From Carcharhinus amblyrhynchos (Eukaryota), in the NCBI GenBank assembly GCA_965287045.1, contig OZ336874.1:88660001-88724000 (forward strand): a DNA stretch of 64,000 nucleotides, in the 5' to 3' direction. This document shows, piece after piece, positions 6,001 through 9,000 of this stretch. The position numbers were made by a program. Each line of letters opens with the position of its first letter. Within the stretch, counting starts at the first letter, position 1.

Positions 6001-9000
6001 ACCTGTTGGACTTTAACCTGGTGTTGTGAACTTCTTACTGCGCCCACCCCAACGCCGGCATCTCCACATCATGGAGATGTGGAGATGCCCGGGGGCAGCC
6101 TGAGAGGTGGTGGATAGGGTTGCCAACTGTATGGGTTGCCAAATGTATTCCTGGTGTTTTTATCACATGACTTGCCCCCACACTCCAGCCATTTATCAGC
6201 CAGCACATCCATCCTTGTGATGCACTGCCTTCCTATGCAAAGTGACTCATTACCTAATTGGATGATCCTTGACTGTCAGCCAAACAGCCTTCCTTTCCCA
6301 ATTTTACTTTGTAAAAAGAATTTTTCAAAGAAATTAAAAGAAACAATTTTTTTAAAAAACCTCCCTACGGGTTTTCTCCAGGTATGTACACAGCAATGTT
6401 CTAGAGCTTCATCTTTAATTCCTGAAGACTCCAGGCCTATTCTGGAGGGTTCACCACCCTAGGGAGATCTGGGCCGGGATTCTCCGATCTCATTCACCCT
6501 ACCATCTCTGCCAGCGAGAACAGAGACCACAGTGGGACTGGAGAATCCTGCCGCTGGACTGGAAAAACCCAGCTGCTAGACAGGAGAATCCCAGCCTTTG
6601 GACTGGAGAATCCCAACGCTGGACTGGAGAATCCCAATGCTGGACTGGAGAATCCCAGCCACCACATCAGAGAATCCCAGCCATGGACTGCAGAATCCCA
6701 GCCACTGAGCTGGAGAATCCCAGCCATTGGACTGGAGAATCCCAGCCACTGGACTGAAGATTCCCAGCTGCTGGACTGGACAATCCCAGCCTCTGTACTG
6801 GAGAATCCCAGCCGCTTCACCAGAAAATCCCAGCCACTGGATTGGAGAATCCTAGCCGTTGGACTGGAGAATTCCAGCCTCTACACCGGAGAATCCCAGC
6901 TGCTGGACTGGAGAATCCCAGCCACTGCACTGGAGAATCCCAGCTGCTGAACTGGAGAATCCCAGATGCTACACCAGAGAATCCCAGCTGCTGGAATGGA
7001 GAATCCCAGCCTCTGCACTGCAGAATCCCAGCTGCTGGAATGGAGAATCCCAGTTGCTGGACTGGGGAATTCCAGCTGCTGCATCGGAGAATCCCAGCCA
7101 CTGGATTGGAGAATCCCAGCCACTGAACTGGAGAATCCCAGCCACTGGTCTGGAGAATCCCAGCCACTGGTCTAGAGAATCCCAGCTGCTGGACTGGAAA
7201 ATCCCTTCTGCTGGACTGGAGAATCCCAGCTGCTGCATCGGAGAGTCCCAGCTGCTAGACTGGAGAATCCCTGCCAATTCCTGTCACCTACAGTAAAATT
7301 GACACCGTCAGAACAAATTACAAAAAAAAAATTCTTCTCTTTGGCCTATCTAAATTCAGACTTCTTCCAAAGTGGTAAAAGTCTGTTGAGTATTGTGTCG
7401 AGATTTTCACATTGTGCTGGGGTCCTTGGGGGTAGATCCAGACCAGTGTCTCATTAGGATCTCTGCAGGAAATGACACGTTTCCAATCCAATTACAACCT
7501 AAGAAAAACCAAGCAGCGTCAGTTTTCTAAGAAAGTGGAGGCATTGGTTGCCTGTCAGCCAGTGGCTCTGACATCCATCATTATAAAGTGCTTTGAAAGG
7601 TTAGTCATGGCACAAATCAATTCCAGCCTCCCAGGCTGCCTGGATCCACTACAGTTTGCCTACCGCCGCAACAGGTCCACAGCCAATGCCATCTCCCTGG
7701 CCTTAACTCAACCCTGGAACACCCAGATAACAAGGACACCTATAACAGACTCATATTTACTGACTGCAGCTCAGCCTTCAACACCATTATTCCCACAAAA
7801 CTCCTATCCAAACTTTGTGGCCTGGGCCTCGGCACCTCCCTTTGTGACAGGATCCTGAACGTCCTAAATCAGCAACCATCAGAATTAATTTCCAACAGAA
7901 CATGTTCTTCCCATGTCTGCATGGGTTTCCTTCAGATGCTCTGGTTTTCTCCCACAGTCCACAGATGTGCAGGTTAGGTGGACTAGTCATGCTAAATTGT
8001 CCCTTAGTGTCCAAAGATGTGTAGGGAAGGTGGATTTGCCCTGGTTAAATGTGTAGTGTGGCGGGATAGGGAGGAGGGGGGTGCGGGTGGTGGGCCTGGG
8101 TGGGATGCTCTTTGGGAGAGTAGGTGCAGGCTCAATGGGCCAAATGGCCTCCTTCTGCACTGTAAAATGTTTATGGTTTCTATGGGACAGAGGAAAAAAG
8201 AATCATGCGGCAATTAGGGAGACCACGAACAGTAAGAATAGGCAACAACATCTCCTCCACGATTATCCTCAACATTGGTGCCCCACAAGGCTGTGTTCTC
8301 AGCCCCCTATTATATTTCTTATATACCTATGACTAAGTGGCCACATTCGCCTCCAACTCAATTTTCAGGTTTGCTGATAACATCACCATAGTGGGTCGGA
8401 TCTCAAGCAATGACAAGACGAAGTACACAAATGAATTGGAGAATCTGGTGAACTGGTGCGGCAACAATACTCTCTCCCTCAATGTCAACAAAATGAAGGA
8501 AATTGTCATTGACTTCAGGAAGCTTAAAGGAGAACATGCTCCTGTCTACATCAACGGGGATGAAGTAGAAAGGCTCAAGGGCTTCAAGTTTTTAGGTGTT
8601 CAGATCACCAACAACCTGTCCTGGCCCCCCCATGCCAACACTGTAGTTAAGAAAGCCCACCAGCACCTCCACTTTCTCAGAAGACTGAAGGAAATTTGGC
8701 ATGTCAGGTACAACTCTCACCAATCTTTACAGATGCACCATAGAAAGCAGTCTTTCTGGTCATATCACAACTTGGTCTGGCTCCTGCTCTGCCCATGACA
8801 GCAAGGAACTATAAAAGGTCATGAATATAGCCCAATACATCACGCAAACCAACCTCCCATCCATTGACTCTGTCTACTCTTCCTGATGCCTCAGCAAAGC
8901 AGCCAGCAAACTAAGGAACCTATGTCCCCTGGACGTTCTCTCTTCCACTTTCTTCTGCCGGGAAAAAGATACAAAAGTCTGAGGTCACGTACCAACCGAC

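What the first reader, a model, noticed from the sequence alone, without database searches (positions are those of the whole stretch)
7866..8222. Two-segment locally templated insertion inside a Rex1/Babar RT region
7866-7899 is the reverse complement of 9290-9323 (33/34 match), about 65 bp past the LINE tail. 7902-8222 is a direct copy of 9968-10278. It looks like a SINE insertion, but it lacks the SINE head, shares private variants with the 9918 SINE (ttccttcagatgctctggttttctcccacagtccacag), and continues about 38 bp into that SINE's unique flank (..aagaatcatgcggcaattagggaga). The LINE resumes after a loss of about 5 bp with aa and aga microhomologies and no TSD. This implies serial template switching with one strand change.
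Basis: seen in the sequence. Interest (0 to 1): 0.7.

Follow-up and report, generated by a model that had tools for sequence, protein, structure and literature searches.

The report
Locally copied patch inside a LINE
A dead LINE retrotransposon carries a 358-base patch copied from two nearby stretches of the same chromosome, one of them flipped, which is most likely the scar of error-prone break or replication repair, a known kind of mutation, rather than a new SINE insertion.

Summary
7863-7899 is the reverse complement of 9290-9326 (35/37). 7902-8222 is a direct copy of 9968-10278 (91% over 321 columns). A paralogous LINE copy (29379-30615, minus strand) and 108 related RT proteins read straight through the site, so 7868-8222 is an insertion. 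It replaced 5-8 nt of the LINE and left no target-site duplication.

The second segment is the sister of the SINE at 9918 (support 97/99). It runs about 35 nt past the SINE tail, as judged against 8 other tails in the window. Neither that extension nor the 37-mer occurs anywhere else in the 64 kb.

The best reading is a DNA-level insertion from two templates, made by serial template switching during break or replication repair. It happened long after the LINE had integrated: about 0.035 changes per site per lineage for the event, against about 0.12 for the LINE branch.

New here: a second copy of the same LINE family (44855-45693) carries a 357-nt inverted copy of its own downstream flank, with the same junction style.

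The genome-wide test of the extension could not be run. This is a known class of mutation in an unusually long and clean form.

The parts
7436..7867 (+). LINE1, left part. This is a 5'-truncated, decayed Rex1-like RT region, and 7866-7867 'aa' is shared with donor 1.
   Evidence: tblastn of a 1055-aa fish RT (P0096): residues 671-782 map to 7556-7887. It aligns to paralog LINE2 up to ...cctaa.
7868..7899 (+). Insert segment 1, an inverted copy of donor 1. The aligned stretch is 7863-7899 and includes imperfect overlap with the LINE (cc.aa).
   Evidence: 37 nt, 95% complementary to 9290-9326. The core is 33/34. It is absent from LINE2.
7900..7901 (+). Two bases 'ac' between the segments that neither donor explains. 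With their neighbours they form the palindrome gaacatgttc.
   Evidence: Read. Donor 1 continues ...caga|cgat and donor 2 is preceded by ...gtatgt|atgttct.
7902..8222 (+). Insert segment 2, a direct copy of donor 2. It comprises a headless SINE body and tail (7902 to about 8186) plus about 35 nt of that SINE's 3' flank (about 8187-8222). The last 'aga' may belong to the LINE.
   Evidence: 90.97% over 321 columns. There are 21-24 substitutions in 311 aligned columns plus a 10-nt indel. The ends of similarity are shown.
8223..9228 (+). LINE1, right part. It holds the rest of the RT, a conserved 3' UTR and an (aatca)n tail.
   Evidence: P0096 residues 778-1051 map to 8220-9038. Pfam ALKBH8_N scores 24.6 bits and RVT_1 20.2 bits, the latter below its cut-off. 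It is 81% identical to LINE2 over 1004 columns. The tails of 4 copies are aligned.
9290..9326 (+). Donor 1, a stretch unique in the window, about 62-64 nt beyond the LINE1 tail.
   Evidence: No other match of 9227-9917 was found in the window.
9918..10243 (+). SINE copy B. It is tRNA-head type with an internal gap of about 42 alignment columns in the head, then body and tail. It contains the start of donor 2.
   Evidence: Alignment of 9 SINE copies and tails.
9968..10278 (+). Donor 2, made of SINE B from mid-body to tail plus about 35 nt of its 3' flank (10244-10278).
29379..30615 (-). LINE2, a paralogous copy that reads through the insertion site and so serves as the 'empty site' reference.
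   Evidence: It has a 160-aa open frame across the site...[13 protein letters not shown]....
44968..45324 (-). Second event. A 357-nt insert in LINE3 is an inverted copy of 44211-44564. LINE3's 5' part is 45325-45693 and its 3' part is 44855-44967.
   Evidence: 90.2% over 357 columns. There are 32 substitutions in 354 columns. The junctions are shown.
44211..44564 (+). Donor of the LINE3 insert, lying 291-644 nt beyond the LINE3 tail and unique in the window.

Best explanation
After LINE1 had integrated and decayed, the DNA broke, or a replication fork stalled, inside its RT region between about 7867 and 8223.

The free 3' end was then extended on two nearby templates in turn:
1. About 35 nt were copied from one strand at 9290-9326.
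2. About 320 nt were copied from the other strand at 9968-10278. This stretch is the back half of a SINE plus about 35 nt of its flank.

The extended end rejoined the other side of the break through 1-3 bases of overlap. The result is a 355-358-nt patch, 5-8 lost LINE bases and no target-site duplication. This is serial microhomology-guided template switching of the MMBIR/FoSTeS or synthesis-dependent 'filler DNA' type.

Shown here: the copies, their orientation, the junctions, the small loss, the sister relation to the local SINE, and the later date.

Inferred: the break, the order of the switches, the polymerase, and whether the template was the same molecule or the sister chromatid.
For: **It is an insertion into a LINE.**
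- LINE2 is uninterrupted at the site.
- 108 of the 120 listed RT homologues carry the contiguous FLTxRPQ-type stretch.
- A full-length homologue aligns to both sides with abutting residues, 782 on the left and 778 on the right.

**Both segments have donors 1.07-2.06 kb downstream, on opposite strands.**
- The matches score E 4e-11 and 2e-128.
- Both donors are unique in the window.

**Segment 2 was copied from the local SINE.**
- The two are sisters at 97/99, on a shared stem of 0.19 with terminal branches of 0.043 and 0.029.
- They share 33 derived states in 192 polarisable columns.
- The match runs about 35 nt beyond the tail seen in 8 other tails.
- The extension is as diverged as the body: 3/36 against 21/275.

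**The junctions look like repair, not target-primed insertion.**
- 5-8 nt are lost and there is no duplication.
- The left junction has an 'aa' overlap, imperfectly cc.aa.
- The right junction has a 1-3 nt overlap.
- Two bases between the segments are orphans.

**Timing.**
- LINE1 and LINE2 differ equally at codon positions 1, 2 and 3 (54/313, 58/311, 60/309; chi-square p 0.78). Their divergence is therefore neutral decay after insertion.
- LINE1's terminal branch is 0.12 by maximum likelihood, or about 41/420 by the three-point estimate.
- The event's per-lineage distance is about 0.035, or about 12/311. Fisher p is 0.002.

**Not a recent assembly duplicate.** The copies differ by 7-9% and by a 10-nt indel. 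At that indel the insert keeps the 'gatagggag' state seen in other SINE copies, while the donor has lost it.

**Literature (passages read).**
- Templated insertions with microhomology, several templates and a return to the original locus are the published MMB-TI signature (PMC8421209).
- Reverse-complement inserts arise by fold-back on the same end (PMC5068794).
Against: - **No genome-wide check.** Whether the 35-nt extension or the 37-mer recurs at unlinked loci could not be tested. Only 7 other SINE bodies and 8 tails, all of older-looking subfamilies (68-79% identity), were available.
- **Size and distance exceed the described norms.**
  - Pol theta inserts are mostly under 25 bp, and about 85% are primed within 10 bp of the break (PMC5068794).
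  - The MMB-TI search tool looks for templates within 100 bp (PMC8421209).
- **The microhomologies are short.** The 'aga' one is inferred, and LINE2 has aaa there.
- **Both long local copies sit in one LINE family.** Both non-tandem local copies of this kind in the window, this one and the LINE3 one, lie inside the same LINE family. That family covers 3579 nt, or 5.6% of the window. Both also draw on the LINE's downstream flank. Random breaks do not predict this.
- **The dating has weak points.** It rests on 4 LINE copies and 420 shared columns. Gene conversion between insert and donor would make the event look younger. The stricter private-change comparison is not significant (27/420 against 6/192, p 0.12).
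- **No reads, population data or orthologues were available.**
Confidence: 0.7

Rival explanations
1. The patch was made during LINE integration. While the cDNA was being made on the target nick, its 3' end left the LINE RNA and copied exposed DNA of the downstream target flank, partly by folding back on its own primer strand. It then returned to the RNA a few bases upstream.
For: - 2 of the 4 copies of this LINE family in the window carry such a patch. In both cases the donors lie in the flank just beyond the LINE tail, not inside the LINE.
- The family covers only 5.6% of the window.
- The near-exact return, with 5-8 and about 13 nt lost, fits re-annealing to the first unpaired RNA bases.
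- For human L1, templated insertions, fold-backs after resection of the reverse-transcribed end, and template-switching RT at insertion sites are reported (PMC11702581, passages).
Against: - **Dating.** LINE branches are 0.12 (LINE1) and 0.17 (LINE3), against per-lineage event distances of 0.035 and 0.048. Fisher p is 0.002 and 1e-5.
- **No master-lineage divergence to fill that gap.** The LINE1-LINE2 divergence shows no codon-position bias, so it was not built up in active master copies.
- **The recurrence count is post hoc and rests on n = 2.**
Confidence: 0.1
2. Segment 2 is an ordinary 5'-truncated SINE retroposition. Its source is either a subfamily whose consensus includes the 35-nt extension or a read-through transcript of the 9918 copy (3' transduction). 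The 37-mer was added separately at its 5' junction.
For: - 5' truncation is common in retroposed copies.
- The two copies share many subfamily-like variants.
- A subfamily consensus could not be examined genome-wide.
Against: - There is no target-site duplication and 5-8 nt are lost.
- The right junction is not at the LINE-type tail that 'stringent' partner LINEs recognise (PMC3747384, passages; tails).
- There is no T-run at 10279. The first TTTT is at about 10335.
- The 9918 copy has a gap of about 42 alignment columns in its head, the region that in tRNA-derived SINEs should hold the Pol III B box. That the gap covers the B box is my reading, not a tested result.
- 0 of 8 other tails carry the extension.
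- An independent 37-nt inverted copy of a site lying between the two SINEs, placed 2 nt from the junction, would be a coincidence.
Confidence: 0.08
3. A break in the LINE was patched with cDNA made from local transcripts, either by endonuclease-independent retroposition or by RNA-templated repair.
For: - There is no duplication, a small target loss, truncated pieces and no tail at the junction.
- From recall, these match endonuclease-independent LINE-mediated insertions.
Against: - Two RNAs of opposite sense from the same 1-kb neighbourhood would be needed.
- Nothing in the sequence marks an RNA step: no tail and no terminator-defined end.
- RNA has no reason to come from within 2 kb of the break.
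Confidence: 0.06
4. The patch is an assembly artefact, such as a chimeric read or a mis-join, or it is a single contiguous copy from an allele or paralogue in which 9290-9967 was inverted.
For: Inverting 9290-9967 would place the two donors next to each other in the observed order and orientation, up to the 2 orphan bases (derived).
Against: - The copies differ from their donors by 7-9% and by a 10-nt indel, so this is not a duplicated read.
- Such an inversion would split SINE B at 9967/9968, yet that point is continuous with the SINE alignment of the other copies.
- No such paralogue exists in the window.
Confidence: 0.04

Closest known systems
MMBIR-type templated insertions (MMB-TI; Osia et al. 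2021, PMC8421209, passages read) and FoSTeS/MMBIR complex junctions (recalled)
   Same: - Insert copied from nearby sequence.
- Inverted copy present.
- More than one template.
- Micro- or imperfect homology at the junctions.
- Return to the original locus with little loss.
- Such events are known to persist as germline variants.
   Different: - The templates lie 1.07-2.06 kb away, against 100 bp or less in that paper's search definition.
- One segment is about 320 nt long.
- One segment is direct rather than inverted.
Polymerase-theta end-joining templated inserts, including snap-back synthesis (van Schendel et al. 2016, PMC5068794, passages read; PMC4912351, listing only)
   Same: - Small deletion plus templated insert.
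- 1-3 nt priming overlaps.
- Repeated priming and dissociation.
- Reverse-complement inserts made from the same end.
   Different: - Those inserts are mostly under 25 bp and about 85% are primed within 10 bp of the break.
- Here the segments are 35 and 320 nt, copied from more than 1 kb away.
Rearrangements at L1 integration sites, including twin priming, template-switching RT, fold-backs and templated insertions (PMC11702581, passages read)
   Same: - Local inverted or duplicated target DNA joined to LINE sequence.
- Microhomology at the junctions.
- Fold-back on a resected end.
   Different: - Those lie at the insertion junctions and arise at integration.
- Here the patch is internal to the LINE and the LINE sequence resumes after it.
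- Dating places the patch well after integration.
SINE retroposition by a partner LINE with stringent 3'-end recognition (V-SINE/HE1 with HER1; PMC3747384, passages read)
   Same: The inserted material is mostly a 5'-truncated SINE in sense orientation.
   Different: - No target-site duplication.
- The junction lies about 35 nt past the tail.
- An extra inverted local piece is attached.
- The host LINE sequence lost bases.

Membership tests
Microhomology-mediated templated insertion (MMBIR / FoSTeS / MMB-TI class) | Inserted sequence is a copy of sequence elsewhere in the locus | tested here: met
   35/37 and 91% over 321 columns, both far beyond chance.
Microhomology-mediated templated insertion (MMBIR / FoSTeS / MMB-TI class) | Microhomology or imperfect microhomology at the switch points | tested here: inconclusive
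   - Left junction: 'aa', imperfectly cc.aa.
- Middle junction: none, with 2 orphan bases.
- Right junction: 1 nt certain, 3 nt ('aga') inferred from Arg in 103/108 homologues.
- Overlaps of 1-3 nt are also expected by chance.
Microhomology-mediated templated insertion (MMBIR / FoSTeS / MMB-TI class) | Return to the original template with little or no loss | tested here: met
   The LINE resumes with 5-8 nt missing relative to LINE2. Homologue residues abut across the site.
Microhomology-mediated templated insertion (MMBIR / FoSTeS / MMB-TI class) | Template close to the insertion (within 100 bp in the MMBSearch definition) | tested here: not met
   The donors lie 1067 and 1745-2055 nt from the resumption point at 8223 (definition from PMC8421209).
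Polymerase-theta end-joining templated insert | Short insert (mostly under 25 bp) templated within about 10 bp of the break | tested here: not met
   The segments are 35 and 320 nt, copied from more than 1 kb away (criteria from PMC5068794).
SINE retroposition (target-primed) | Target-site duplication flanking the insert | tested here: not met
   The flanks ...cctaa and ccacga... abut an 8-nt stretch in LINE2. Bases were lost, not duplicated.
SINE retroposition (target-primed) | 3' junction at the SINE's LINE-type tail | tested here: not met
   The shared sequence runs about 35 nt beyond the tail defined by 8 other tails.
SINE retroposition (target-primed) | The extension belongs to the family or subfamily consensus | not testable with these tools
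   0 of 8 other tails in 64 kb carry it. No eukaryotic genome collection was available.
Rex1/Babar LINE (host element) | RT-coding region, a conserved 3' UTR and a terminal oligonucleotide repeat | tested here: met
   - RT homology to fish LINE proteins carrying PF00078 and PF09004, with or without PF03372.
- 4 copies share the 3' UTR and an (aatca)n tail.
- The feature list comes from PMC6274825.
Rex1/Babar LINE (host element) | Phylogenetic placement within the Rex1/Babar clade | not tested
No named Rex1 or Babar reference was among the hits.
HE1 / V-SINE (inserted SINE) | tRNA-derived head, conserved core and partner-LINE tail matching the HE1 consensus | not tested
- ARAGORN calls no tRNA in the window.
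- The tRNA-like look of the heads is my reading.
- HE1 is listed as a shark and ray V-SINE in PMC3747384.

The most novel reading that the evidence does not exclude
Patches copied from the element's own downstream flank are a recurrent feature of this Rex1-like LINE family, not random scars.

One possibility is that old copies are preferentially re-broken, for example re-nicked by the family's own endonuclease or by a structure in the RNA or DNA. The break would then be repaired by long-range fold-back copying of the 3' flank. The other possibility is that the patches arise at integration and were later partly homogenised with their donors, which would hide their true age.

In this window 2 of 4 copies show the pattern, both with donors beyond the tail.
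Probability: 0.12. Interest if true: 0.65.

Novelty: new member of a known kind. Interest (0 to 1): 0.38.

Why it matters
Templated insertions are read as footprints of error-prone replication and break repair. Most documented cases are short and come from cancer genomes, patients or model organisms.

This case is old, fixed in the germline and datable, and it sits in a fish-type genome. The pre-event sequence can be reconstructed from a paralogous LINE. It shows that the same process can copy hundreds of bases from templates 1-2 kb away and can switch strands.

There is also a practical lesson for repeat annotation. A headless 'SINE insertion' inside a LINE need not be a retroposition. Counting it as one inflates SINE activity and distorts nested-insertion dating.

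If the recurrence in the same LINE family holds genome-wide, it would point to a link between LINE sequences and this repair route. I did not find such a link described in the papers I looked at.

Tried and rejected
- **A third copy of the 37-mer at the LINE1 5' edge.** 7304-7324 is 81% complementary to 9294-9314. This is chance level: 22 of 704 window tiles score as well against the donor neighbourhood.
- **The patch as a transposon with terminal inverted repeats.** The two ends (cctaaatcagc... and ...attagggaga) show no convincing inverted match by eye. Nor do the donors' ends. Not pursued further.
- **A single contiguous donor from an inverted allele.** Rejected because it would split SINE B where the SINE alignment is continuous.
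- **The third local high-identity pair as another such event.** 25115-25403 and 26887-27362 are inverted at 98%. This looks like a pair of long terminal inverted repeats around about 1.5 kb and is not inside a LINE. It was not counted as a templated patch.
- **Pfam on the LINE1 fragments.** 3 of the 4 fragments gave no family. The fourth gave RVT_1 below its cut-off. RT identity therefore rests on the homologue searches.
- **ARAGORN.** It found 0 tRNA-like genes, so it gave no independent support for the SINE head.
- **Integration-coupled origin.** Considered seriously after the LINE3 find, then marked down by the dating.
- **Not run because they could not bear on the question.**
  - Genome contigs holds bacteria and archaea only.
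  - The phage, plasmid and E. coli collections are irrelevant here.
  - Structure and complex prediction do not apply.
- **Closed or unseen.** Supplementary figures were not seen, for example S7 Fig of PMC5068794 on snap-back inserts.
- **Other points.** The window is not taken for human: it has fish-type LINE and SINE content, and its best RT hits are fish proteins. No spliced gene model was involved, so no joined-exon step arose.
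Full report
**What is there**

The window has no N. It carries fish-type repeats, and I do not take it for human.

Positions 7436-9228 hold a 5'-truncated, decayed non-LTR retrotransposon, LINE1.
- A 1055-aa fish RT protein aligns with residues 671-782 on 7556-7887 and residues 778-1051 on 8220-9038.
- Pfam finds ALKBH8_N (24.6 bits) and a sub-threshold RVT_1 (20.2 bits) on 8337-8798. It finds nothing on three shorter fragments.
- A search with the paralog's open frame found 942 proteins at E <= 1e-5 among 1110 candidates. 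The best 120 are mostly fish proteins with PF00078 and PF09004, and some also carry PF03372.
- Three further copies of the same family lie in the window: LINE2 at 29379-30615 (minus strand), LINE3 at 44855-45693 (minus strand) and LINE4 at 35176-35597 (plus strand).
- All four share a conserved 3' UTR and an (aatca)n tail. This fits the Rex1 description in PMC6274825 (passages).
- Clade membership was not tested.

**Checking the observation**

The repeat finder reports inverted arms 7863-7899 / 9290-9326 (37 nt, 95%) and direct copies 7902-8080 / 9968-10146 and 8071-8222 / 10127-10278. blastn joins the latter into 7902-8222 vs 9968-10278 at 90.97% over 321 columns, E 2e-128. The 37-mer scores E 4e-11.

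A 21-mer of the first segment and a 24-mer of the extension each occur, at up to 3 mismatches, only at their two known places. Shuffles expect 0.01 and 0.00 matches. Nothing else in the window matches 9227-9917 or 10279-11500.

The pairwise alignment shows similarity starting sharply at 7902/9968 and ending sharply at 8222/10278.

**It is an insertion into the LINE**

LINE2 reads ...gtgaacttcgtaa-cccaaaaa-ccacaatcag... in one 160-aa open frame (FVTQKPQSV). LINE1 reads ...ctgaacgtcctaa-[7868-8222]-ccacgaacag....

Of the 120 listed homologues, 108 have the PQGC/S-type motif with enough upstream sequence. All of these show the contiguous FLTxRPQ-type stretch, with Arg at the relevant position in 103 of 108.

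LINE1 therefore lost 8 nt at most. If the terminal 'aga' of the patch is really the LINE's Arg codon, it lost 5 nt. LINE2 has aaa at that codon. There is no target-site duplication.

**Where segment 2 came from**

Nine SINE copies in the window were aligned.
- The copy at 9918 has a head, with a gap of about 42 alignment columns, then body and tail.
- The 7902 copy starts in the body.
- The two share 33 derived states in 192 columns where the other seven give a clear majority. They differ at 24 of 311 aligned columns plus a 10-nt indel. A pairwise alignment gives 21 differences.
- They are sisters in a maximum-likelihood tree, with support 97/99, a stem of 0.19 and terminal branches of 0.043 and 0.029.
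- The other long SINE matches are 68-79% identical to them.
- After 'ctgcactgta' the 8 other tails keep a GGGATTCTATGATTCTA-type tail and then diverge. The two copies stay alike for 58 nt, which is about 35 nt beyond the tail.
- The extension is as diverged as the body: 3/36 against 21/275.
- At the indel the insert keeps the 'gatagggag' state seen in other copies, while the 9918 copy has lost it. This fits copying from an earlier state of that locus.

**Junctions (read)**

- **Left.** The LINE reads ...gtcctaa and the donor, reverse-complemented, reads ...ggccaaaatcagc. They share 'aa', with imperfect cc.aa upstream.
- **Middle.** Donor 1 would continue 'cgat' and donor 2 is preceded by 'gtatgt'. 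Two bases, 'ac', are unexplained. The junction reads as the palindrome gaacatgttc.
- **Right.** Donor 2 continues 'tgcact' and the LINE resumes 'ccacga'. The overlap is 1 nt certain and 3 nt if 'aga' is LINE-derived.

**Mechanism**

Two donors on opposite strands, both 1.07-2.06 kb downstream on the same DNA, were joined 2 nt apart. They were set into a site that lost a few bases. This is what serial template switching of a free 3' end predicts.

Two routes give the observed order:
1. The left end copies the top strand at 9326->9290, then the bottom strand at 9968->10278, and anneals to the right end.
2. The right end copies 10278->9968, then folds back on its own strand at 9290->9326, and anneals to the left end.

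The sequence cannot tell these routes apart. It also cannot distinguish a double-strand break from a stalled fork.

The published signatures match in kind. These are microhomology, several templates, inverted copies and a return to the original locus (PMC8421209), plus fold-back copying on one end (PMC5068794).

They do not match in scale.
- Pol theta inserts are mostly under 25 bp, and about 85% are primed within 10 bp.
- The MMB-TI search is defined for templates within 100 bp.

I therefore file the patch under the MMBIR/FoSTeS or 'filler DNA' class and not under Pol theta end joining. 'Filler DNA' and FoSTeS are named from recall.

**Retroposition is unlikely**

- There is no duplication, and bases were lost.
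- The 3' junction is not at the tail that partner LINEs with stringent 3'-end recognition use (PMC3747384, passages).
- There is no T-run at 10279. The first TTTT is near 10335.
- The 9918 copy's head has a gap where I would expect a B box. That is my reading, not a test.
- The attached inverted 37-mer has no place in that model.

**A second case, found while checking background**

A self-comparison of the whole window lists few non-tandem local pairs at 85% identity or more. One is 44211-44564 against 45324-44968, inverted, at 90.2%.

The second member sits inside LINE3.
- Read in the LINE's orientation, LINE3 is ...ctagctacgact-[357 nt]-(g)atgcactctc....
- LINE1, LINE2 and LINE4 have ...gact-gtaacactaca(t)tc-tgcact... 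at the same place.
- About 13 nt were lost. 'act' is shared between the LINE and the donor at one junction. One orphan 'g' sits at the other junction.
- The donor lies 291-644 nt beyond LINE3's tail.
- The geometry is a plain fold-back: the strand ending in the LINE's 3' part copies itself further out.

So 2 of the 4 copies of this family carry a patch drawn from their own downstream flank. The family covers 3579 nt, or 5.6% of the window.

The other local pair, 25115-25403 / 26887-27362 at 98%, looks like long terminal inverted repeats and is not in a LINE.

**Did the patches arise at LINE integration?**

That would explain the recurrence and why the donors lie outside the LINE. L1 integration is reported to produce templated insertions and fold-backs at its sites (PMC11702581, passages).

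Dating argues against it.
- LINE1 and LINE2 differ equally at the three codon positions (54/313, 58/311, 60/309; chi-square p 0.78; pos3 against pos1+2 p 0.59). Their 18% divergence is therefore neutral decay after insertion, not divergence of active masters.
- On 420 columns shared by all four copies the tree is star-like. Terminal branches are 0.12 (LINE1), 0.091 (LINE2), 0.17 (LINE3) and 0.15 (LINE4).
- Three-point estimates give about 41/420 for LINE1 and about 57/420 for LINE3.
- The insert-donor distances are JC 0.071 and 0.096, which is 0.035 and 0.048 per lineage.
- Both patches are therefore about 30% as old as their LINE copies. Fisher gives 41/420 against 12/311, p 0.002, and 57/420 against 16/354, p 1e-5.

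Caveats:
- There are only four copies.
- Gene conversion between insert and donor would lower the apparent age.
- The stricter private-change comparison, 27/420 against 6/192, is not significant (p 0.12).

I keep the integration-coupled reading at about 0.1. The wider 'LINE-linked' reading stands at about 0.12 as the boldest case not excluded.

**What could not be done**

No eukaryotic DNA collection was available. Whether the extension or the 37-mer recurs elsewhere in this genome stays open, and that is the decisive test. No reads, orthologues or population data were available.

On print: one search combined target-primed reverse transcription, template switching, flanking, inverted, LINE and snap-back. 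It found 30 papers with at least 5 of the 6 terms, of which 12 were listed. None of the listed titles or abstracts describes LINE-internal copies of the element's own 3' flank. I read passages of only one of them, so I make no claim that it is unpublished.

**Verdict**

It is a new and unusually long, clean example of a known mutational class. The recurrence in the same LINE family is unexplained and worth a genome-wide look.

Noticed in passing
window 44211-45693: A second copy of the same LINE family (LINE3, minus strand) carries a 357-nt inverted copy of sequence 291-644 nt beyond its own tail. It has about 13 nt of LINE lost and an 'act' overlap, and the insert is 90% identical to its donor. 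This is the same style as the finding.
   Followed up: yes
window 25115-25403 and 26887-27362: A pair of inverted repeats of about 290 nt at 98% identity encloses about 1.5 kb. The right arm is interrupted at 26941-27121 by a retroposon 3' end (...ctgcgctgtaatgttctatgttcta...). It may be a transposon with long terminal inverted repeats or a young local inverted duplication.
   Followed up: partly
window 6535-7275: A 22-nt tandem array of about 34 copies at 78% matches (consensus GGACTGGAGAATCCCAGCCGCT) lies just upstream of the truncated 5' end of LINE1.
   Followed up: no
window 27864-29316: A 43/88-nt tandem array of about 33 units of 43 nt at 93% matches abuts the tail end of LINE2 (29379).
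   Followed up: no
window 4377-4524 and 4564-4711: Two 148-nt arms, inverted, 86% identical and 40 nt apart, form a hairpin-like or palindromic element.
   Followed up: no
window 13550-14070, 38160-39584, 58959-59956: A dispersed repeat of 0.5-1 kb at 90-96% identity between copies, with a local 427-nt tandem doubling at 38735-39584. The copies at 38161-38619 and 59404-60216 show weak RT similarity (24-28% identity to fish RT proteins). A 43-nt piece recurs at 1722-1764.
   Followed up: no
window 7897-7906: The junction between the two insert segments reads as a perfect 10-nt palindrome, gaacatgttc. It is built from the end of segment 1, the two orphan bases and the start of segment 2. Whether it reflects a fold-back step is unknown.
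   Followed up: no
window 46354-46929 and 32057-32326: Fragments of other, more distant RT-coding elements show 29-30% identity to the fish RT proteins used as probes.
   Followed up: no
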